Shown here piece by piece: positions 26,583 to 44,406 of a stretch of 64,000 nt of DNA. The translations under genes and the position numbers were made by a program. The notes below the pieces were generated by a model, which was not told where the DNA came from, did no database searches, and saw nothing but the letters and a program-made list of their open reading frames with translations. Source of the stretch: Escherichia phage teqhad; the sequence record NC_054933.1. One strand, given 5' to 3'. How positions within the stretch are numbered: the stretch's first letter is position 1; every line of letters starts with the position of its first letter.

Positions 26583-27596
26583 TCATTTATAATAACTTCG
26601 GTGGTTTTCAAGATAGACCTTCTCAAGGAAGTCATCCCAGAAACCCATGTCTACTTTTTGCTGCATACCGTTCTTAGAAGCTTCAGTAGATGCTGCTTCT
26701 ACTTGATCGACCACATCTTCCAAAAACTTTTGAACCGTTTTAAATGGATGTTTACCCAACTTCACGTCGAGAATAAATGGAGCGTCTTGAAGTGGATAAA
26801 CCAAGTCACCAGTTTTGTAAATTTCCAATAGTTGAAGTCCACCACGACAAGCATGGCTCAGAGCTTTCCAGTCAATGCCTTCATTGGCTTCGGCCTTTCG
26901 AGCGCGTTCACCATATTCAGCATCTAATTTGTTCAGTGACTGCTTAAGCTCAATAAGAGAAAGCGTTGTCTGATATTTACGACCCAGCACTGTATAGAAC
27001 GTTTGTGGACCTGTTTTCTCATGATTATGGAACACCCATTCACAGAATTCGTTTTCTGGAAGACGATGCTTAATATCTTCAACTTTAGTACGACGCTGCT
27101 TAATGGAACCGTCTTCTTGGTAATCAACCCATTGCTCAGGGATTTGATTAACTACTTTCAATACATCACGTAATGCAGCCAAACGAGAACCCTTGACGCC
27201 GTATTTAGAAGCTTGCTTGCGGACATATCCTAAATAGGATTTCATGTTAGTCGTATAAAAACGAGAACGGTTGTCTTGAATAAACTTCCACACATCAGGC
27301 AAATCAGATTTAACCACTAGTTCAGGTGGAGTGTGAAGCATATCCAATGCTACAGTTTCACCATCTGCTGCTAATTTAAAGAAATATTTAAGACTGTATA
27401 GTTCATGGTCAATATCATCTTTAGTGTTTTTAGATGATGTGTTGTTAGTGTTTTTACTCATGTGCTCTTTGACATTTCCGACAAGAATATCGCGAGCAGG
27501 AGGAACAAAGATTTCTTTAAAATCTACATCAGATTCTGGGGTAGAAGTTCCATAAAGATGACTACCAAAATAGCTTTTCATTACTGTTTTCATCAT
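26583..27596 (-). CDS. protein with minimal nucleotidyltransferase-fold (pol-beta-type) motif
   Basis: 337 aa; N-terminal FGSHLYGTSTPESDVDF matches the hG[GS]x9-13DxD motif, third acidic residue in VALDMLH. Confidence 0.6.
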   Translation of the reverse strand: MMKTVMKSYFGSHLYGTSTPESDVDFKEIFVPPARDILVGNVKEHMSKNTNNTSSKNTKDDIDHELYSLKYFFKLAADGETVALDMLHTPPELVVKSDLPDVWKFIQDNRSRFYTTNMKSYLGYVRKQASKYGVKGSRLAALRDVLKVVNQIPEQWVDYQEDGSIKQRRTKVEDIKHRLPENEFCEWVFHNHEKTGPQTFYTVLGRKYQTTLSLIELKQSLNKLDAEYGERARKAEANEGIDWKALSHACRGGLQLLEIYKTGDLVYPLQDAPFILDVKLGKHPFKTVQKFLEDVVDQVEAASTEASKNGMQQKVDMGFWDDFLEKVYLENHRSYYK

Positions 27597-28054
27597 TCAG
27601 CCTTATATTCAATAACAGGACATACTTTAGCTTTACGAGCTTTTAAAAATTCAACGATAATCGATTTCTTGGGTTGAATAGGAGGTAAACCTTTATTTTT
27701 CCTATCAATGTTTTCTACGTGTAAAGCATAATCCTTTTTCCATTTATAATCTTTATATTTTTCACGCAAATGTACAGGAATAACAAATGAACCAATAATA
27801 AGTAAAACAACCAAAAGCGCAAGTATAAATGCTGATGGAAGCAAAGTCCATAAACTACCAAAAATAAGCCAACGCTGTAAACTTTCTGCACAAATAATTG
27901 TTAGCCCTACGAGTATAGCACATCCAAAAATAGAAACGAAAAATGTAGGAATGGCAATAGACCAAAAATATGCGCATAGTGTCTTAGGTCGTTGCCATTC
28001 ATCGTTAAACAATTTGAATAATTTATAATGCCAAGAGTTTTCATTAATAATCAT
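27593..28054 (-). CDS. polytopic membrane protein
   Basis: 153 aa with three or more hydrophobic helices. Confidence 0.55.
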   Translation of the reverse strand: MIINENSWHYKLFKLFNDEWQRPKTLCAYFWSIAIPTFFVSIFGCAILVGLTIICAESLQRWLIFGSLWTLLPSAFILALLVVLLIIGSFVIPVHLREKYKDYKWKKDYALHVENIDRKNKGLPPIQPKKSIIVEFLKARKAKVCPVIEYKAE

Positions 28055-28056
28055 AA

Positions 28057-28578
28057 TTATCCTTTCATTGAAGGTGTAACAGTTGTTAAATACTTAATCA
28101 TAGCCTCAGCTTCTGATTTTGATAGTGAAATTTCTTCACCGTTTTGGCGAATAGAAACAAAATCTGGATGACGATCACCACCAGCTTTTAAAACACACAT
28201 ATAAGTATCAGCTTCGCCTTCAATATTTGAAATGATTGAAGCAGTTCCACACGAATGTGGTTTTTGATAAATCAATACAGCTTTTCTTCCACCATTTGAC
28301 TGTTCATAGGCTTTTAATACATCAAACAAATCAGTTCTTTTATCAATAGCTAAGATGTTATTTTCATCTTCAATATTAAATCCTTCGGATACTTCATAAA
28401 GAGTTACCCATAAATCACCGATGTCAATAACAGCATTTACTTTTCCACGGCTTTCAAGAGTATGACAAATTTTCTTGATTTCGTCATAACTCATTTTAAT
28501 AATATCATCTCCTTGACTAAGGAAGATGTCATTTTTAAATTCAACACGAATTAAACCACTTCCACTTGAAATAAACAT
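28057..28578 (-). CDS. hypothetical protein (paralog pair A)
   Basis: 173 aa; C-terminal VSIRQ...SEAEAMIKYLTTVTPSM similar to the next ORF. Confidence 0.5.
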   Translation of the reverse strand: MFISSGSGLIRVEFKNDIFLSQGDDIIKMSYDEIKKICHTLESRGKVNAVIDIGDLWVTLYEVSEGFNIEDENNILAIDKRTDLFDVLKAYEQSNGGRKAVLIYQKPHSCGTASIISNIEGEADTYMCVLKAGGDRHPDFVSIRQNGEEISLSKSEAEAMIKYLTTVTPSMKG

Positions 28579-28584
28579 ATTTCC

Positions 28585-29139
28585 TCACTTTGAAATCATA
28601 ATTGGAATGACAGAATCAAGATAAGTCTTTAGCGCAATAGCTTCGTCTTTGGTAAATGTGACAATATGTGCTCGAAAATCGTCAATTTGACGAATAGATA
28701 CTACATCTCCCTCTTCATAGCATTTTGACACATTTAAAATAGTTTCATCATTCTGATTGCAAGCGTTAGTAATAATAGCATTGCAATTTTTAAACCATTT
28801 TAAACTGTGTTTTCTTTCATTAGAATAATAAAAATATTTAATCTTATCTATAAAACTATCCCAATGGATAACTGATAAGCATATTGACTCGCTTTCAATA
28901 TTAAATCCTGGGCATGAAGAATAAAAATGAATTTTATGCTCATCATTAATGCTTACAATTTTATCAGTATAAGGATTTTCAATTTGGGTTAAATGAATGA
29001 TTTCACTAGGCGTAAAATATAGCATATCATCTTCTTGTGTCAAACGATACATATTATTTACTTTTTCTATAGCCAATTCACCAAAAAGTGAACTAACTTC
29101 TAATACTAATCGTTTCATATTAATCCTTTTTATTGGCAC
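28585..29139 (-). CDS. hypothetical protein (paralog pair B)
   Basis: 184 aa; C-terminal VSIRQ...KDEAIALKTYLDSVIPIM. Confidence 0.5.
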   Translation of the reverse strand: MPIKRINMKRLVLEVSSLFGELAIEKVNNMYRLTQEDDMLYFTPSEIIHLTQIENPYTDKIVSINDEHKIHFYSSCPGFNIESESICLSVIHWDSFIDKIKYFYYSNERKHSLKWFKNCNAIITNACNQNDETILNVSKCYEEGDVVSIRQIDDFRAHIVTFTKDEAIALKTYLDSVIPIMISK

Positions 29140-29398
29140 GAATTTGTTCTAAAATTTTAGAGTATTCCTTTGTATCAGATTTACGTACAATCGATACACT
29201 ATACGGCATACTATCGGTGTCTTTTATAAAGCGTTCCAAATGACACTCTAATAAAATTTCTGGATTATAAATCGTGTACATCAAATTACCTGTTGCTCCA
29301 CGATATTGACAGATTTCTACTGATTGAACACCATTCCATAATTTTGTTAAGACCAAATCACCTACTTCTAATTTAGGAAAGCCCATGTTATTCACCAA
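29120..29398 (-). CDS. hypothetical protein
   Basis: 92-aa ORF. Confidence 0.45.
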   Translation of the reverse strand: MVNNMGFPKLEVGDLVLTKLWNGVQSVEICQYRGATGNLMYTIYNPEILLECHLERFIKDTDSMPYSVSIVRKSDTKEYSKILEQIRANKKD

Positions 29399-29573
29399 TT
29401 AAAGTTTCAATATAAGAATCAAGATTTACTTTAGCTTCTTCCATAAGAGTTTTGTATTTAATCTTGTTAGCATGTCCGGAGAAAGCTGATTCATCAATAA
29501 CTGTTGATGTATGAACAGCTCTACTATACGTCTCAATTAATTCTCTTAATTTAAAAGCCTGCTCACTTGTCAT
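29388..29573 (-). CDS. small protein, ~60-aa paralog family member
   Basis: 61 aa, MTSEQAFKLRELIETYSRAV... Confidence 0.5.
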   Translation of the reverse strand: MTSEQAFKLRELIETYSRAVHTSTVIDESAFSGHANKIKYKTLMEEAKVNLDSYIETLIGE

Positions 29574-29705
29574 TACATACTCCTTTGAATCATATCAATA
29601 ATATTGTTCACCAGATTATAGGTAAACATTGGGTAATTATATTGAATCATCACATATATAACAAACAAAACTTTCATTCTCTTCTCCTTGACAGTTGACA
29701 AGATT

Positions 29706-29735
29706 ACTATACCATAACCTTGCCAACTTGTAAAC
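29706..29735 (-). promoter_or_regulatory. T4-type early promoter
   Basis: Minus strand GTTTAC - 18 nt - TATAGT. Confidence 0.55.
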
Positions 29736-29737
29736 CG

Positions 29738-29911
29738 TTAAATGTTGTTTTCAATAAAATTCTGAAGCTTTGTGTGAGCATCAACCATGATTTTCATTTC
29801 TTCCTTTGCGAAAGCTGTACCTCTTTCCCGAGCAGAATACTCATAGTCAGAAACTGCATTAGCATATTCTTCAATTAGCTTCATTAAAAACATCTGCTTT
29901 TCAGTTTTCAT
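29738..29911 (-). CDS. small protein (57 aa), ~60-aa paralog family member; below track cutoff
   Basis: ATG 29911-29909 with AGGUGG SD; MKTEKQMFLMKLIEEYANAVSDYEYSAREGTAFAKEEMKIMVDAHTKLQNFIENNI. Confidence 0.5.
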   Translation of the reverse strand: MKTEKQMFLMKLIEEYANAVSDYEYSARERGTAFAKEEMKIMVDAHTKLQNFIENNI

Positions 29912-30095
29912 TATTCCACCTAATCATTTCAAGATATTGAACTAACTTAGCTTTAGATTTATCCAAATCCTTTTTAGCTGCTTCTATACCGTCGTATGAA
30001 TATCCTTCACAATGCTCAACTGCTAATTGATATGAATCTATTTCAATATCACGTGCTAATTTAATGATTTTTTCAAACTGTTCACGTGTTAGCAT
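29901..30095 (-). CDS. small protein, ~60-aa paralog family member
   Basis: 64 aa, MLTREQFEKIIKLARDIEIDSY... Confidence 0.5.
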   Translation of the reverse strand: MLTREQFEKIIKLARDIEIDSYQLAVEHCEGYSYDGIEAAKKDLDKSKAKLVQYLEMIRWNNEN

Positions 30096-30097
30096 AC

Positions 30098-30301
30098 TTA
30101 AACTCTCGTATTATGATCGATAATTTCATCAAGAAACATATCTAACGCTTCTAAAGCATTATCAACTTTAGCTTCAAGTTCATCAATGCCTTTATTTGCA
30201 ATGCCTGACGAAAACCAAGCAAAGTCACTAAGTTCCTCGTCTGCTTTACGAATTAAAGCTACCAATTCTTTAATCTTATCCGCTTGTTCGATACTAATCA
30301 T
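30098..30301 (-). CDS. small protein, ~60-aa paralog family member (start at [13 protein letters not shown])
   Basis: Internal ATG gives 67 aa and an ATGA-type junction with the upstream ORF. Confidence 0.45.
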   Translation of the reverse strand: MISIEQADKIKELVALIRKADEELSDFAWFSSGIANKGIDELEAKVDNALEALDMFLDEIIDHNTRV

Positions 30302-30489
30302 TATTCCACCACATATGAAAGAGAGAATATTGCACACGCCATGTGAGTTGCAACTTCATCACACATATTATAACGTTTCTTAAGAAGTTCTACAAGTTCT
30401 TCACTAGTAACTTCATCCATGTCGACGAAAAAATCACCATTAATGATGACGTAGATATTTCCTTCTTGATTAAGTGCTTCAATTTTCAT
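30301..30489 (-). CDS. small acidic protein
   Basis: 62 aa; GAGGAG SD. Confidence 0.5.
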
Positions 30490-30562: not shown

Positions 30563-30580
30563 AGTCTCCCGAAGGAGACT
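30563..30580 (-). terminator. UUCG-tetraloop hairpin
   Basis: Minus-strand RNA AGUCUCC-UUCG-GGAGACU upstream of rI.-1. Confidence 0.5.
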
Positions 30581-31528: not shown

Positions 31529-32110
31529 CTAACCAAGCTTTTTAGTTAATTCATTCCAATGTTTTCTACACAAAGAAACATAAATTTCATCACCAATACA
31601 GATTTGATTACCTTCTTTAACTGGTGTTCCATCTTCCATTAATCGAGCTGTCATAATCGCTTTTTTACCACAATGACAAACTGCCTTTAGTTCAATAAGT
31701 TTATCTGCAATCGCTAAAAGTTCTTTAGAACCTTCAAACAATTTTCCAGCGAAATCAGTCCTTAATCCATAAGCCATAACAGGAACATTATATGTATCAA
31801 CAATTCGACTCAATTGATGCACTTGTTCAGTTTTTAAAAACTGAGCTTCATCTACAAATACGCAATGAATATCTTTTTGTGCTTCAGCCCATTTATAGAA
31901 CTCAAAAATATCCATATCATCCGTAATAATATTCGCTTCCTGCTTAATTCCAATACGAGAAACGACTTCACAGACAGAATCGCGAGTATCAATAGCAGGC
32001 TTAAGAACTAATACACTCATTCCACGTTCTTTATAATTATGTGCAGCAGTCAAAAGAGAAGCAGATTTTCCAGCATTCATTGCTGCATAAGTAAAAATTA
32101 AACTCGCCAT
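31529..32110 (-). CDS. tk: thymidine kinase
   Basis: 193 aa; P-loop AAMNAGKS; Zn-binding CHCGKK...C..H. Confidence 0.92.
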   Translation of the reverse strand: MASLIFTYAAMNAGKSASLLTAAHNYKERGMSVLVLKPAIDTRDSVCEVVSRIGIKQEANIITDDMDIFEFYKWAEAQKDIHCVFVDEAQFLKTEQVHQLSRIVDTYNVPVMAYGLRTDFAGKLFEGSKELLAIADKLIELKAVCHCGKKAIMTARLMEDGTPVKEGNQICIGDEIYVSLCRKHWNELTKKLG

Positions 32111-32111
32111 T

Positions 32112-32300
32112 TTAGTCCTTAGTTAAATTTTCTAAATATGTTTCTAAATCATTTTCAGCTTTATCGATAGATTTTACTAATTCGTAATATGTTTCGGCAT
32201 CTCCATAATCAGAAGATATTTCAAAAGACAAATCCTTTTCTAAACTAATAATTTCACCAACTAAAAATAATATTTCGTTCTTTTGTTCGCGAGTAATCAT
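32112..32300 (-). CDS. small protein, ~60-aa paralog family member
   Basis: 62 aa, MITREQKNEILFLVGEIISLEKD... Confidence 0.5.
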   Translation of the reverse strand: MITREQKNEILFLVGEIISLEKDLSFEISSDYGDAETYYELVKSIDKAENDLETYLENLTKD

Positions 32301-32482
32301 AAGGAATTTATATAATTAATAAGTTCTTGTTCTTTATTATCGAATTCTTTAGAAAGTTCTTCGTACTCGTTTGCACTAAAAGGACCGCATTCATTACAAA
32401 CTTTTTCCAATTCACTATTTTTATCCATAACTTCGTGGATAAGAGAAAAGAGTTTGTCTTTTTGTTCTTTGCTTAGGCTCAT
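32297..32482 (-). CDS. small protein, ~60-aa paralog family member
   Basis: 61 aa, MSLSKEQKDKLFSLIHEVMDKNSELEK... Confidence 0.5.
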   Translation of the reverse strand: MSLSKEQKDKLFSLIHEVMDKNSELEKVCNECGPFSANEYEELSKEFDNKEQELINYINSL

Positions 32483-32652
32483 ATATTAATTTCCAGAAGT
32501 TTTAAAATAATTCGCTTTTGCTTAAATATTTCCACAGTTAAATGATCAGTATCTTTTTGACCAATTCCAATGGCAAAACCTTTATTAACAGCGAGTTCAA
32601 TTAAATTATCAAGTTCACGTAACACTTCATATTGTAACTCAGAACTATTCAT
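32479..32652 (-). CDS. small ORF (57 aa), ATGA-coupled on both sides; below track cutoff
   Basis: ATG 32652-32650 overlaps the upstream stop; MNSSELQYEVLRELDNLIELAVNKGFAIGIGQKDTDHLTVEIFKQKRIILKLLEINI. Confidence 0.45.
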   Translation of the reverse strand: MNSSELQYEVLRELDNLIELAVNKGFAIGIGQKDTDHLTVEIFKQKRIILKLLEINI

Positions 32653-32882
32653 TTTGGTTCACCTTGTTTTACAAAGTCTGGATACGGTTGAAACCCGGAA
32701 TAGAAACCTTCACCGGTATGATTTGTACATCCTTTATTGGAGCAATAGCAATAGCACCAATAATCAAAATCACATATCATTTCATCGTTACATAAAGTAA
32801 AAACAACAGGCCATTTACACTTTTCACAATGGGCATTTTTAAGAATACTAGTTTGGCTCATAACCATGTAACCTTTAAGCAA
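32649..32882 (-). CDS. cysteine-rich small protein
   Basis: 77 aa with 10 Cys (CEKCKW...CYCYCSNKGC). Confidence 0.5.
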   Translation of the reverse strand: MLKGYMVMSQTSILKNAHCEKCKWPVVFTLCNDEMICDFDYWCYCYCSNKGCTNHTGEGFYSGFQPYPDFVKQGEPK

Positions 32883-34925: not shown

Positions 34926-35246
34926 TTATTCTTTAAATCTAATCAATTTATTCATAGACTTTGAAACTTCTGCACGAACCTCATGTAAGTTTTTAAGCTG
35001 TTCAAGACGCTGCTCATAGTAAGCAATTTCATCTTCTTCGAGACAGTCCTGTGAATCTTCTTTAAGATAGCGTGCATAGTCCTGGAAAGCTTTACGGACT
35101 ACTTCCTGGAAGTCATCAAGACTTTGAATTTTCTTAGGAGCGGCAGATACACGACGAGGGGCAGTATAATACTCATAACCAAACCCTGCACTTAATTGAG
35201 CCATTATTATTTTTCCTCTGGTTGGAACACTGCACGACAAGCCCAC
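34926..35246 (-). CDS. hypothetical early protein (likely starts at [13 protein letters not shown])
   Basis: 106-aa track ORF. Confidence 0.45.
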
Positions 35247-35506
35247 ATACTGGCTTCTTTGAGTTTCGTTTTAGCAATAGTTAACTGATCGAGGCTTTCG
35301 GCATAATTCTTCGCGAATTCACAATCTTCACAATTATCTAGTGCTTCCCAGAATTCATCATACAAAGCATCAAAGATAAGTCCTAAACGAACTTCAGCGT
35401 CTTTGATAGCATTCACTTTACCGATTTTCTCTTCAGTATGTGGTTTATAACCCTTAATATCTTCAATCATATTTGACTTCCTCACCAGTACATAAATCAT
35501 ATTCAA
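35207..35506 (-). CDS. hypothetical early protein (likely starts at [10 protein letters not shown])
   Basis: 99-aa track ORF. Confidence 0.45.
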
Positions 35507-43458: not shown

Positions 43459-43534
43459 TGGTCGAGGCAGTAGGGATCGAACCTACGACCCAGGACTTAG
43501 AAGGTCCTTGCTCTTCCTTCTGAGCTATGCCCCG
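43459..43534 (-). tRNA. tRNA-Arg (anticodon UCU)
   Basis: Manual fold: acceptor CGGGGCA/UGCCUCG, anticodon loop CUUCUAA, T-arm GUAGG-UUCGAUC-CCUAC, CCA encoded. Confidence 0.8.
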
Positions 43535-43538
43535 TAAT

Positions 43539-43614
43539 TGGGGTGACCGATGGGAGTCGAACCCATGACTACGAGAATCACAATCTCGAGTTCTACCAAC
43601 TGAACTACGGCCAC
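43539..43614 (-). tRNA. tRNA with anticodon GUG (His by anticodon; C73 present, no encoded G-1)
   Basis: Manual fold: acceptor GUGGCCG/CGGUCAC, D-stem GUUC/GAAC, anticodon stem CGAGA/UCUCG, loop UUGUGAU, T-loop UUCGACU, CCA encoded. Confidence 0.6.
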
Positions 43615-43728
43615 ATTAATACCTACTCCAACAATCAAGATGTCTTCACACGAAATTAAGAGAAGAGTGATCAGTTCAACCCCTATAATCGCGTCAAGTA
43701 GATATTAATGTGACAGTTGTCACAAATT

Positions 43729-43803
43729 TGGCGGACGTGATAGGATTCGAACCTATAACCAATCGCTTAACAGGCGATCGCTCTGCCATTGAGCTACACA
43801 TCC
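43729..43803 (-). tRNA. tRNA-Asn (anticodon GUU)
   Basis: Manual fold: acceptor GGAUGUG/CACGUCC, anticodon stem AUCGC/GCGAU, loop CUGUUAA, T-arm AUAGG-UUCGAAU-CCUAU, CCA encoded. Confidence 0.7.
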
Positions 43804-43807
43804 AAAT

Positions 43808-43894
43808 TGGTGGGGAGTGGTGGAGTCGAACCACCCGAGTCGCAATGACAATGGATTTACAGTCCACACCGCTACCTCTACGGGATAACTCCCC
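43808..43894 (-). tRNA. tRNA-Tyr (anticodon GUA), long variable arm
   Basis: Manual fold: acceptor GGGGAGU/ACUCCCC, anticodon stem GUGGA/UCCAU, loop CUGUAAA, T-arm GGUGG-UUCGACU-CCACC, CCA encoded. Confidence 0.65.
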
Positions 43895-43907
43895 TTAATT
43901 CTTAATT

Positions 43908-43982
43908 TGGTGGCCCTGGGTGGAATTGAACCACCATCTGGCGATTATGAGTCGCTTGCTTGAACCTTCCAGCTACAGGGCC
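43908..43982 (-). tRNA. tRNA with anticodon CAU (Ile-type as in T4, or Met)
   Basis: Manual fold: acceptor GGCCCUG/CAGGGCC, anticodon loop CUCAUAA, T-arm GGUGG-UUCAAUU-CCACC, CCA encoded. Confidence 0.65.
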
Positions 43983-43983
43983 T

Positions 43984-44059
43984 TGGTGCTGATTGACGGA
44001 ATCGAACCGCCGACCTTCTCATTACAAGTGAGTTGCTCTACCTACTGAGCTAAATCAGC
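43984..44059 (-). tRNA. tRNA-Thr (anticodon UGU)
   Basis: Manual fold: acceptor GCUGAUU/AAUCAGC, D-stem GCUC/GAGC, anticodon loop CUUGUAA, T-loop UUCGAUU, CCA encoded. Confidence 0.75.
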
Positions 44060-44064
44060 AAAAC

Positions 44065-44154
44065 TGGCGGAGGCGATAGGATTTGAACCTATGAGTCGCC
44101 GGAGCGACTGCCGGTTTTCAAGACCGGTGCATTAAACCACTCTGCCACGCCTCC
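44065..44154 (-). tRNA. tRNA-Ser (anticodon UGA), long variable arm
   Basis: Manual fold: acceptor GGAGGCG/CGCCUCC, anticodon stem CCGGU/ACCGG, loop CUUGAAA, T-arm AUAGG-UUCAAAU-CCUAU. Confidence 0.75.
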
Positions 44155-44156
44155 AG

Positions 44157-44230
44157 TCTCCATACAAGGATTTGAACCTTGGACCTCCTGATCCCAAATC
44201 AGGCGCTCTACCAAACTGAGCTACACGGAG
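44157..44230 (-). tRNA. tRNA-Pro (anticodon UGG), CCA not encoded
   Basis: Manual fold: acceptor CUCCGUG/UAUGGAG (G-U pairs), anticodon stem CCUGA/UCAGG, loop UUUGGGA, T-arm CAAGG-UUCAAAU-CCUUG; 2 nt from tRNA-Ser. Confidence 0.7.
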
Positions 44231-44240
44231 TAAATTAAAT

Positions 44241-44314
<74 letters not shown>

Positions 44315-44319
44315 AAATT

Positions 44320-44406
44320 TGGTGCGAGAAGTGGGACTCGAACCCACAAGGAAATCATTCCGCAGCATTTTAAGTGCTGTGCCTTTACCAATTTGACCAT
44401 TCTCGC
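44320..44406 (-). tRNA. tRNA-Leu (anticodon UAA), long variable arm
   Basis: Manual fold: acceptor GCGAGAA/UUCUCGC, anticodon stem CAGCA/UGCUG, loop CUUAAAA, T-arm GUGGG-UUCGAGU-CCCAC, CCA encoded. Confidence 0.75.

What the first reader, a model, noticed from the sequence alone, without database searches (positions are those of the whole stretch)
29388..30301. Cluster of ~60-aa paralogous small proteins, each with its own promoter or coupled start
At least four adjacent small ORFs (29388-29573, 29738-29911, 29901-30095, 30098-30301) share an N-terminal pattern M-x-(T/S)-x-E-Q-x-x-K-(I/L)-x-x-L-(I/V). One of them (29738-29911) is below the track cutoff. An early promoter (29706-29735) and a possible 34-aa leader peptide lie inside the cluster.
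Basis: seen in the sequence. Interest (0 to 1): 0.45.

Follow-up and report, generated by a model that had tools for sequence, protein, structure and literature searches.

The report
T4-type small helical-hairpin gene family

Summary
The window is a Tequatrovirus (T4-like phage, 99% identical to phage teqsoen). The finding lies in the T4 "mobD.2–mobD.5" block downstream of tk and rI on the minus strand.

All four ORFs match Pfam DUF7438 (E 1e-15 to 1e-17). Leave-one-group-out profiles also recover each one (E 2e-6 to 3e-14 among 940 window ORFs). Two further members, tk.1 and tk.2, lie just upstream of tk, so the window holds six.

ORFs B, C and D correspond to T4 mobD.2a, mobD.3 and mobD.4. 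ORF A is absent from T4. mobD.5 is not a family member.

The genes are real: pN/pS is 0.1–0.5, and relatives occur in three other groups of T4-like phages. AlphaFold models (pLDDT 90–95) show an antiparallel two-helix hairpin with heptad hydrophobic stripes. The family is acidic (median pI 4.4).

Expression is consistent with two conserved T4-early-type promoters plus overlapping stop/start codons. The "34-aa leader peptide" is the conserved small gene mobD.2. I found no sign of an attenuator.

Two genome-wide screens call all these genes dispensable in T4. Copy number, loop sequence and alleles vary between near-identical phages.

Function is unknown. My best guess is that they are oligomerising, protein-binding accessory factors that modulate the host.

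Verdict: confirmed, already known as a family, low interest.

The parts
30563..30580 (-). Intrinsic-terminator-like hairpin (AGTCTCCTTCGGGAGACT followed by a T run) just after the rI.-1 stop. It marks the upstream boundary of the mobD.5-D-C-B transcription unit.
   Evidence: Terminator scan. The same hairpin followed by a promoter is kept in T4, P896 and S16. Annotated as a terminator in phage OE5505.
30518..30547 (-). T4-early-type promoter upstream of mobD.5: GTTTAC at 30547-30542 and TACTAT at 30523-30518, with TG two bases upstream.
   Evidence: Read from the sequence. The simple scan missed it because it matches only 8 of 12 consensus positions. The mobD.5 promoter was detected by primer extension in T4 (PMC1702504). 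GTTTAC-N17/18-TACTAT is conserved in T4, P896 and S16.
30301..30489 (-). mobD.5 homologue (62 aa). First gene of the unit. NOT a DUF7438 member.
   Evidence: No DUF7438 hit. PHROG 3024 at E 2e-44. T4 annotation.
30098..30301 (-). Paralog D (67 aa), corresponding to T4 mobD.4. Its start ATG overlaps the mobD.5 stop (TAATG). pI 4.3. The loop is hypervariable, with a 21-nt indel between relatives.
   Evidence: DUF7438 E 2.5e-15. Leave-out profile E 1.6e-12. 83-96% nucleotide identity to relatives whose flanks are 98-99% identical; pN/pS 0.22. Protein variants listed.
29901..30095 (-). Paralog C (64 aa), corresponding to T4 mobD.3. It starts 2 nt after the D stop.
   Evidence: DUF7438 E 1.5e-17. 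Leave-out profile E 2.1e-12. pN/pS 0.11.
29738..29911 (-). Paralog B (57 aa), the intact form of T4 mobD.2a, which is 38 aa and frameshifted in the T4 reference sequence. It overlaps the C 3' end by 11 nt.
   Evidence: DUF7438 E 5.8e-16. Leave-out profile E 2.2e-6. AlphaFold model pLDDT 95.2, helices 4-30 and 32-56. T4 has a 1-nt gap, and its two fragments both hit the profile. pN/pS 0.17.
29706..29735 (-). Second T4-early-type promoter, immediately after the B stop: GTTTAC at 29735-29730 and TG-n-TATAGT with TATAGT at 29711-29706.
   Evidence: Promoter scan, 10 of 12 consensus positions with an upstream TG. Sequence read. Nearly invariant in T4 and close relatives; a GTTTAC...TACTAT site, preceded by a terminator, sits at the same place in Ursula. 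Not mapped experimentally as far as I could find.
29573..29677 (-). mobD.2 homologue (34 aa, hydrophobic N-terminus, conserved QYNxPxFTYNLVN core). Preceded by the Shine-Dalgarno sequence AAGGAG. Its stop overlaps the start of A (TAATG).
   Evidence: T4 annotation. PHROG 3515 E 7e-22. Peptide conserved in S16 gp61 and Ursula CDS0117. pN/pS 0.10. No RNA-structure signal.
29388..29573 (-). Paralog A (61 aa). Absent from T4 itself. Followed 1 nt later by a phage Tudor-domain gene (29120-29386).
   Evidence: DUF7438 E 1.7e-15. Leave-out profile E 6.2e-9. T4 lacks window 29117-29561. Among ~501 related phage records, 207 carry A and 115 carry A plus Tudor.
32112..32300 (-). Paralog tk.1 (62 aa, pI 4.15), outside the finding's coordinates. 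Its start overlaps the tk.2 stop (ATGA). tk starts 1 nt after its stop.
   Evidence: DUF7438 E 7.1e-15. Leave-out profile E 2.6e-14. Sequence read. Absent from the six closest relatives fetched.
32297..32482 (-). Paralog tk.2 (61 aa, pI 4.5), outside the finding's coordinates. Its start overlaps the stop of the upstream 57-aa gene (ATGA).
   Evidence: DUF7438 E 3.9e-19. Leave-out profile E 7.1e-11. AlphaFold model pLDDT 90.4, helices 5-30 and 37-60.

Best explanation
SHOWN.
- The four ORFs, together with tk.1 and tk.2 two kilobases upstream, are six anciently diverged paralogs of one small protein family, Pfam DUF7438.
- The window is a T4-like phage, and the block is the accessory region tk.2-tk.1-tk-rI.1-rI-rI.-1-mobD.5-mobD.4-mobD.3-mobD.2a-mobD.2-(A)-(Tudor)-mobD.1.
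- The ORFs are real protein-coding genes under purifying selection that is somewhat relaxed.
- Each is predicted to fold as one antiparallel two-helix hairpin of about 60 residues. A Thr/Ser N-cap (the 'M-I-T-x-E-Q' motif) opens helix 1.
- Hydrophobic residues follow a heptad pattern on both helices, and the surface is mostly acidic.
- The conserved residues sit at the 'open' end of the hairpin, where the N- and C-termini meet. The loop end is hypervariable.
- The genes sit in the T4 early-gene block. Two sigma-70/T4-early-type promoter sequences serve them, each behind a stop codon or terminator. Stop/start overlaps chain the genes together, which should favour co-translation in fixed proportions.
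- They are individually dispensable for T4 growth on laboratory E. coli.
- Their number and alleles differ between otherwise 98-99% identical phages.

INFERRED (about 0.3 confidence for this part).
- The hydrophobic stripe is too wide to be buried in a two-helix monomer. The hairpins therefore most likely pair, either with themselves, with the neighbouring paralog, or with a helix of a target protein. The result would be a Rop-like four-helix bundle.
- They would act early in infection as small protein-binding modulators or inhibitors of host factors, possibly host defence components.
- Different paralogs would cover different targets or target variants.
For: - Identity of the region: 99% to phage teqsoen and 96% to T4; T4 gene names.
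- Family membership: Pfam DUF7438 for all six. Leave-one-group-out profiles give E 2e-6 to 3e-14. A profile scan of all six reading frames finds exactly six members in the window.
- Coding: pN/pS 0.11-0.49, against 0.01 for tk. Members occur in Gaprivervirus P896, Gelderlandvirus S16 and Citrobacter phage Ursula at 20-40% identity.
- Narrow family: only 46 cluster representatives at E<=1e-3 among 1.84 billion proteins, nearly all 57-67 aa.
- Fold: two AlphaFold models with pLDDT 90.4 and 95.2, each helix-loop-helix.
- Heptad pattern and acidity: family median pI 4.4, mean net charge -6.4.
- Early expression: the mobD.5 promoter was mapped in T4 (PMC1702504). Promoter elements are conserved across genera.
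- Dispensable: CRISPRi-ART calls them 'Not Fit' (PMC11879866 supplement). HIDEN-SEQ calls them 'Non-essential' (bioRxiv 10.1101/2025.11.20.689424 supplement). The interval nrdC.11-mobD.3 is deletable (PMC9825161).
- Turnover: A is missing in T4, and mobD.2a is frameshifted in the T4 reference. tk.1 is missing in the six closest relatives. tk.2 is 67-69% and D 83-96% identical in a 98-99% backbone. Natural Tk.2/Tk.1 chimeras exist, P0033 and P0091.
Against: - No experiment or homology links any member to a function or partner.
- I could not run a multimer prediction, so pairing is inferred only from the hydrophobic pattern, gene adjacency and one fusion protein.
- pN/pS below 1 gives no sign of positive selection. 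The local divergence could come from mosaic recombination rather than an arms race.
- The lack of a phenotype in two screens fits an accessory role. It fits redundancy or a marginal role equally well.
- The promoter at 29735-29706 is a sequence match only.
Confidence: 0.8

Rival explanations
1. The hairpins are Rop-like nucleic-acid binders: small four-helix-bundle dimers that bind RNA or DNA and tune early phage transcript stability or translation.
Against: Sequence identity to Rop is 7%. There is no Pfam or PDB sequence match. The family is acidic overall (median pI 4.4, net charge about -6, down to -11), which is unfavourable for nucleic-acid binding. The hairpin fold matches more than 1000 unrelated chains.
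Confidence: 0.07
2. The 34-codon ORF (29573-29677) is a regulatory leader peptide. Its translation would control read-through of a hairpin/terminator (29628-29605) into paralog A and the downstream genes.
For: A terminator-like hairpin with a T-rich tail lies inside the ORF. It is annotated as a putative terminator in phage OE5505. The ORF has a strong Shine-Dalgarno sequence and is coupled to A through TAATG.
Against: The hairpin is weak: 8 pairs, 3 of them G-C, with an 8-nt loop. Folding energy of the region is not better than shuffles in the window (z -0.75), S16 (+0.98) or Ursula (+0.47). The peptide itself is conserved across genera, most strongly where the hairpin lies, so the partial retention of pairing is explained by amino-acid conservation. 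pN/pS is 0.10. It is a recognised protein family, PHROG 3515.
Confidence: 0.07
3. The database names are right: paralog A is a 'helicase loader' and mobD.3/mobD.4 are 'molybdopterin-guanine dinucleotide biosynthesis protein MobD'.
For: PHROG 4859, which A matches at E 1e-38, carries the label 'helicase loader'. RefSeq records give both names to these genes.
Against: None of the six matches any helicase-loader or molybdenum-cofactor family in Pfam or NCBIfam. A 61-residue two-helix hairpin cannot hold the domains of known loaders. The 'MobD' name looks like a mistaken expansion of the T4 gene symbol mobD.x. To my knowledge that symbol denotes ORFs next to the mobile endonuclease gene mobD; GenBank AF158101 calls them 'MobD.3/MobD.4 hypothetical protein'.
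Confidence: 0.01
4. The similarity is convergent rather than paralogous. Any short amphipathic helical hairpin with a heptad pattern would match a coiled-coil-like profile.
For: Pairwise BLASTP is mostly non-significant. The profile picked up two very long, probably coiled-coil proteins, P0127 and P0142, at E 1e-6 to 2e-4.
Against: Non-heptad features are shared: the M-(I/L)-(T/S)-x-E-Q start directly at the initiator Met, the same length, the same loop position, and the C-terminal L-x-x-(Y/F)-(I/L)-E-x-(I/L). Single-group profiles link the groups at E 3e-8 to 3e-4. No other ORF among the 940 in the window scores, although other small helical ORFs are present. The genes share a location and orientation.
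Confidence: 0.03

Closest known systems
Pfam DUF7438 (PF24219), equivalent to T4 Tk.1, Tk.2, MobD.3, MobD.4 and MobD.2a; PHROGs 653, 2758 and 4859
   Same: All six window proteins are full-length members above the curated cutoff. They are orthologous to named T4 genes in the same positions.
   Different: Nothing differs in kind. The window carries six copies. The T4 reference carries four intact copies plus one frameshifted copy. The closest relatives, such as teqsoen, carry five. Paralog A and the intact form of B are missing from the T4 reference.
ColE1 Rop/Rom (63-aa helical hairpin that homodimerises into a four-helix bundle and binds RNA kissing complexes)
   Different: There is no sequence relationship (7% identity). 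The phage proteins are acidic. Dimerisation and RNA binding are untested. The fold is generic.
Other small T4 early 'host take-over' proteins (for example AsiA, Arn, Stp, Dmd). These are recalled from general knowledge and were not tested here.
   Same: Small, early-expressed and non-essential on laboratory hosts. Located in the variable regions of T-even genomes. Several of them act by binding a single host protein.
   Different: No sequence or specific fold similarity to any of them was found. No partner is known for DUF7438. DUF7438 is multi-copy, whereas those are single genes.

Membership tests
Pfam DUF7438 (PF24219) | Whole-protein HMM score above the curated gathering cutoff (25 bits), covering the 57-position model end to end | tested here: met
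   A 57.5, B 59.0, C 64.1 and D 57.0 bits. tk.1 55.6 and tk.2 69.2 bits. Model positions 1-57 are covered in each.
Pfam DUF7438 (PF24219) | Similarity holds when the protein's own orthologues are removed from the profile, so it is not circular | tested here: met
   Leave-one-group-out E-values are 2e-6 to 3e-14 in a database of 940 window ORFs.
Pfam DUF7438 (PF24219) | Single-domain protein of about 55-70 aa from T4-like phages (Straboviridae) | tested here: met
   The window proteins are 57-67 aa. Hits in 1.84 billion representatives are nearly all 57-67 aa. Annotated hits are Tequatrovirus, Gaprivervirus, Gelderlandvirus and other Straboviridae.
Rop/Rom family | Sequence match to Rop (Pfam or PDB sequences) | tested here: not met
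Rop/Rom family | Helical hairpin that forms an antiparallel homodimeric four-helix bundle | not testable with these tools
   The monomer hairpin is predicted. No multimer prediction was available. The only support is indirect: a wide hydrophobic stripe and a tandem-fusion protein, P0147.
Rop/Rom family | Basic or polar RNA-binding face on helix 1 | tested here: not met
   The family is acidic: median pI 4.4 and mean net charge -6.4.
Helicase loader (label of PHROG 4859 and of RefSeq records) | A recognisable helicase-loader domain | tested here: not met
   In Pfam, A shows only DUF7438 above the cutoff. NCBIfam shows nothing relevant. A 61-aa two-helix model cannot hold such a domain.
Molybdopterin-guanine dinucleotide biosynthesis protein 'MobD' (RefSeq name) | Match to a molybdenum-cofactor biosynthesis family | tested here: not met
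   No such hit in NCBIfam or Pfam. GenBank AF158101 names them 'MobD.3/MobD.4 hypothetical protein'.
Leader-peptide transcription attenuator | Stable, conserved alternative RNA structures or a terminator overlapping a short ORF whose amino-acid sequence is otherwise unconstrained | tested here: not met
   Folding z-scores are -0.75, +0.98 and +0.47 in three phages. The peptide sequence is conserved across genera, and pN/pS is 0.10.
T4 early (sigma-70-dependent) promoter | -35-like GTTTAC and -10-like TAnnnT at 17-18 nt spacing, upstream of early genes. The consensus is recalled from the T4 literature. | tested here: met
   Sites at 30547-30518 and 29735-29706. Conserved across genera. The mobD.5 promoter is active in T4 (PMC1702504). 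The site at 29735-29706 has not been mapped experimentally.

The most novel reading that the evidence does not exclude
The DUF7438 hairpins may form a combinatorial set. Adjacent, translationally coupled paralogs would pair into homo- and heterodimeric four-helix bundles through their conserved open ends. Their hypervariable loop ends would each bind a different host protein, for instance a sensor or effector of an anti-phage defence system. Under this reading, the copy-number and allele differences seen between near-identical Tequatroviruses would help set host range. The conserved three-gene string promoter-mobD.2 peptide-hairpin-Tudor protein would be a functional unit of its own.
Probability: 0.12. 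Interest if true: 0.6.

Novelty: already known. Interest (0 to 1): 0.2.

Why it matters
This finding adds little. The genes are annotated in T4 and in hundreds of relatives, and the paralogy is already captured by Pfam and PHROGs.

It has three modest uses:
- It corrects misleading database names ('MobD molybdopterin…', 'helicase loader').
- It shows that the family has six copies here, split into two clusters around tk and rI.
- It documents fast turnover of copies, loops and alleles. That makes the family a reasonable candidate when searching T-even accessory genes for host-range or counter-defence functions.

The function of these proteins remains an open question, though a minor one.

Tried and rejected
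1. Pairwise BLASTP between copies was almost uninformative: only A-D reached E 0.002. Profiles were needed.
2. The PDB sequence-profile search gave nothing below E 0.16.
4. NCBIfam gave no meaningful hit.
6. Literature searches for mobD.x, DUF7438, PHROG ids and tk.1/tk.2 found no functional study. They found only a primer-extension control, a deletion interval and two genome-wide screens. The T4 genome review (PMC150520) is not held.
7. DNA-level repeats between paralogs: none beyond a 13-nt identical start junction. The duplications are therefore old.
8. I tested whether mobD.5, the 57-aa gene at 32479-32652, rI.1, or the ORFs that follow mobD.2 in Ursula and S16 are members. None is significant. 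I left them out.
9. The leader-peptide/attenuator idea was tested by RNA folding and rejected.
Full report
**What the region is.** A 3.1-kb stretch around the finding is 99.0% identical to Escherichia phage teqsoen. It is 95-99% identical to about 500 other Tequatrovirus records. It aligns with T4 at about 96% identity.

All genes here run on the minus strand. Using the T4 annotation, the order from upstream to downstream is:

| Gene | Coordinates | Length | Note |
|---|---|---|---|
| tk.2 | 32297-32482 | 61 aa | |
| tk.1 | 32112-32300 | 62 aa | |
| tk | 31529-32110 | | |
| rI.1 | | | |
| rI | | | |
| rI.-1 | | | |
| mobD.5 | 30301-30489 | 62 aa | |
| D (= mobD.4) | 30098-30301 | 67 aa | |
| C (= mobD.3) | 29901-30095 | 64 aa | |
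| B (= intact mobD.2a) | 29738-29911 | 57 aa | |
| mobD.2 | 29573-29677 | 34 aa | |
| A | 29388-29573 | 61 aa | |
| phage Tudor-domain gene | 29120-29386 | | |
| mobD.1 | | | y05I-like |

T4 itself lacks window 29117-29561, which holds A and the Tudor gene. Its reference sequence also has a 1-nt frameshift in mobD.2a.

**Check of the observation.** The four ORFs are at the stated coordinates. Direct BLASTP between them is weak: only A-D reaches E 0.002. On that test alone the finding's own refutation criterion might seem to be met. Profile methods settle the question.
- Each ORF matches Pfam DUF7438 end to end, at E 1.5e-17 to 2.5e-15.
- The Pfam model may have been built from these very proteins. 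I therefore built a 40-sequence family alignment. I removed each window paralog together with every sequence at least 40% identical to it. I then searched all 940 stop-to-stop ORFs of the window.
- The left-out protein was recovered every time: A 6e-9, B 2e-6, C 2e-12, D 2e-12, tk.1 3e-14, tk.2 7e-11.
- Profiles of single orthologous groups also link the groups: C-tk.1 3e-8, C-tk.2 4e-6, C-D 8e-5, A-D 1e-4.

The paralogy is real and spans the whole protein. It fits D exactly and the others with small deviations.

**Extent of the family.**
- A six-frame profile scan finds exactly six members in the 64-kb window: the four in the finding, plus tk.1 and tk.2. mobD.5 is not a member.
- Other phages carry fewer. 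T4 has four intact copies plus the frameshifted mobD.2a. Gaprivervirus P896 has three. Gelderlandvirus S16 and Citrobacter phage Ursula have two each, next to tk.
- An exhaustive HMMER search of 1.84 billion cluster representatives found only 46 proteins at E<=1e-3, almost all 57-67 aa.
- Word-indexed hits and BFVD structural neighbours are all from T4-like phages of enterobacteria. All are labelled uncharacterised.

The family is therefore small, narrow and already catalogued (Pfam DUF7438; PHROGs 653, 2758 and 4859).

**Are they genes?** I compared the window with seven close relatives.
- pN/pS is 0.39 (A), 0.17 (B), 0.11 (C), 0.22 (D) and 0.49 (tk.2). It is 0.10 for mobD.2. For comparison, it is 0.01 for tk and 0.08 for rI.
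- This is purifying selection, but looser than on core genes.
- Conservation of length and pattern across genera at 20-40% identity points the same way.

**Anatomy of the proteins.**
- AlphaFold2 models of Tk.2 (pLDDT 90.4) and B (pLDDT 95.2) are antiparallel two-helix hairpins.
- The conserved Thr/Ser at position 3 sits just before helix 1, so the 'MITxEQ' motif is a helix N-cap.
- Hydrophobic columns follow a heptad pattern on both helices. Several are doubled at adjacent positions (12/13, 15/16, 59/60, 63/64). That stripe is wider than two helices alone can bury.
- The family is acidic: median pI 4.4 and mean net charge -6.4. The window paralogs range from pI 4.15 (tk.1) to 5.3 (A).
- Among orthologues of D, the two helix ends are almost invariant. 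The loop and the start of helix 2 vary and carry a 7-residue indel.

**Expression signals.**
- After the rI.-1 stop there is a terminator hairpin at 30580-30563.
- It is followed by GTTTAC (30547-42), 18 nt of spacer, and TACTAT (30523-18), and then by AGGAG and the mobD.5 start.
- The mobD.5 promoter was seen by primer extension in T4. Its transcript was used there as a RegB-insensitive control (PMC1702504).
- The terminator-promoter arrangement is conserved in T4, P896 and S16.
- D starts on the mobD.5 stop (TAATG). C starts 2 nt after the D stop. B overlaps the end of C by 11 nt.
- Right after the B stop comes a second promoter-like site: GTTTAC at 29735-30 and TG-n-TATAGT ending at 29706. 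It matches 10 of 12 consensus positions. It is nearly invariant among Tequatroviruses, and an equivalent site sits at the same place in Ursula.
- That site precedes AAGGAG and the 34-codon mobD.2, whose stop overlaps the start of A (TAATG). The Tudor gene starts 1 nt after A.
- tk.2, tk.1 and tk are chained in the same way, through ATGA overlaps.
Two promoters serve the block.

**The 34-aa ORF.**
- It is T4 mobD.2 (PHROG 3515, E 7e-22).
- Its peptide (MK…VQYNxPxFTYNLVN…) is conserved in S16 gp61 and Ursula CDS0117. In both phages it is followed by a helical ORF of about 55 aa, and in S16 then by the Tudor gene. That helical ORF does not reach significance as a DUF7438 member.
- A weak hairpin inside the ORF (29628-29605) is called terminator-like. 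RNA folding of the region is no better than shuffled sequence in three phages. The hairpin also coincides with the most conserved amino acids.
- I conclude it is a small protein gene coupled to A, not an attenuation leader.

**Dispensability and turnover.**
- CRISPRi-ART scores mobD.2, mobD.2a, mobD.3, mobD.4, mobD.5, tk.1 and tk.2 as 'Not Fit' (PMC11879866 supplement).
- HIDEN-SEQ calls them all non-essential (bioRxiv 10.1101/2025.11.20.689424 supplement).
- The interval nrdC.11-mobD.3 can be deleted from T4 (PMC9825161).
- Of about 501 related records, 207 carry A and 115 carry A plus Tudor.
- The six closest relatives lack tk.1. Their tk.2 is only 67-69% identical at the nucleotide level, while flanking genes are 98-99% identical.
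- Natural Tk.2/Tk.1 chimeras exist (P0033 and P0091).
- Paralogs share no DNA similarity beyond an identical 13-nt start junction, GGTGGAATAATGA, at B and D. The duplications are therefore old, and the current variation is gain, loss and exchange of copies.

**Mechanism.**
- What is shown is the family, the fold class, the conserved promoter elements (one of them mapped in T4), the coupling, the dispensability and the turnover.
- What I infer, at roughly 0.3 confidence, is that the hairpins pair into four-helix bundles and act as small protein-binding modulators of host factors.
- The basis is the wide hydrophobic stripe, the usual occurrence as adjacent coupled pairs, one natural protein with two units in tandem (P0147), and the acidic surface.
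- Acidity argues against a Rop-like RNA-binding role, but does not exclude it for A, B and C.

**Database names.** The names 'helicase loader' (PHROG 4859 and RefSeq) and 'molybdopterin-guanine dinucleotide biosynthesis protein MobD' (RefSeq) have no support in Pfam or NCBIfam. The second looks like a mis-expansion of the T4 gene symbol.

**Verdict.** The feature is an already catalogued family of unknown function in a very well-known phage lineage. Interest is low (0.2). The one reading that would raise it is a combinatorial, host-range-determining set of hairpin binders. My evidence does not exclude that reading, and nothing here supports it directly.

Noticed in passing
window 28057-28578 and 28585-29118 (minus strand): Two adjacent paralogous y05I-like genes (Pfam T4_y05I_N plus T4_y05I_C; 173 and about 177 aa), followed by a 153-aa membrane-like ORF (27593-28054). 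They occupy the place where T4 has one copy (mobD.1) and the HNH homing endonuclease gene mobD.
   Followed up: partly
window 29117-29561: This 445-bp segment carries paralog A and a phage Tudor-domain gene. It is absent from T4. Among about 501 related phage records, 207 have A and only 115 have A plus Tudor. The order mobD.2, small helical ORF, Tudor recurs in Salmonella phage S16.
   Followed up: partly
window 32112-32482; loci L006-L011: The six closest relatives (teqsoen, OE5505, phiD1, ACG-C40, ECO4, Some) lack tk.1. They carry a tk.2 allele only 67-69% identical at the nucleotide level, although flanking genes are 98-99% identical. This is a sharp local mosaic.
   Followed up: partly
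window 30098-30301 (paralog D): D is a local divergence hot spot: 83-96% nucleotide identity against 98-99% for its neighbours. It has a 21-nt indel in the loop, and the T4 form is 60 aa instead of 67.
   Followed up: partly
proteins P0033 and P0091; P0147: Public sequences include natural chimeras with a Tk.2 N-terminal half and a Tk.1 C-terminal half. One 119-aa protein carries two DUF7438 units in tandem.
   Followed up: no
window 29908-29920 and 30298-30310: An identical 13-nt junction (minus strand GGTGGAATAATGA: Shine-Dalgarno-like GGTGGA, TAA, overlapping ATG) lies at the starts of B and D. It is the only DNA-level repeat between paralogs.
   Followed up: no
T4 locus L001 3997-4178; HIDEN-SEQ supplement: mobD.2a is frameshifted (38 aa) in the T4 reference sequence. 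The HIDEN-SEQ authors' T4 annotation lists it as 174 nt, which is full length. The frameshift may therefore be strain-specific or a sequencing error.
   Followed up: no
RefSeq annotations of related phages: Several product names propagate without support. These are 'molybdopterin-guanine dinucleotide biosynthesis protein MobD' for mobD.x genes, 'helicase loader' for paralog A, and 'starvation-inducible transcriptional regulator' for rI.-1 (Pfam DUF5856 only). The first two were tested here; for rI.-1 the only evidence is its Pfam hit.
   Followed up: partly
window 29688-29715 (plus strand): A promoter-like site antisense to the cluster (TTGACA, 16-nt spacer, TACCAT; 10 of 12 consensus positions) lies inside the mobD.2 5' leader, where TTGACA occurs twice in tandem. 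It may be a chance match.
   Followed up: no
window 35207-35506 (minus strand): A 99-aa ORF matches the Pfam Acb2/Tad1 hairpin domain at E 1e-19. To my knowledge, that family acts as an anti-CBASS/anti-Thoeris signalling-nucleotide sponge.
   Followed up: no
window 43459-44406 (minus strand): A cluster of ten tRNA genes: Arg, His, Asn, Tyr, Met, Thr, Ser, Pro, Gly and Leu. From memory, T4 has eight with a partly different set. I did not check this.
   Followed up: no
window 32479-32652 and 32649-32882 (minus strand): A 57-aa gene (PHROG 3452) and a 77-aa phage zinc-binding-domain gene lie between tk.2 and the tk.3 homologue. The T4 annotation shows no genes there.
   Followed up: no
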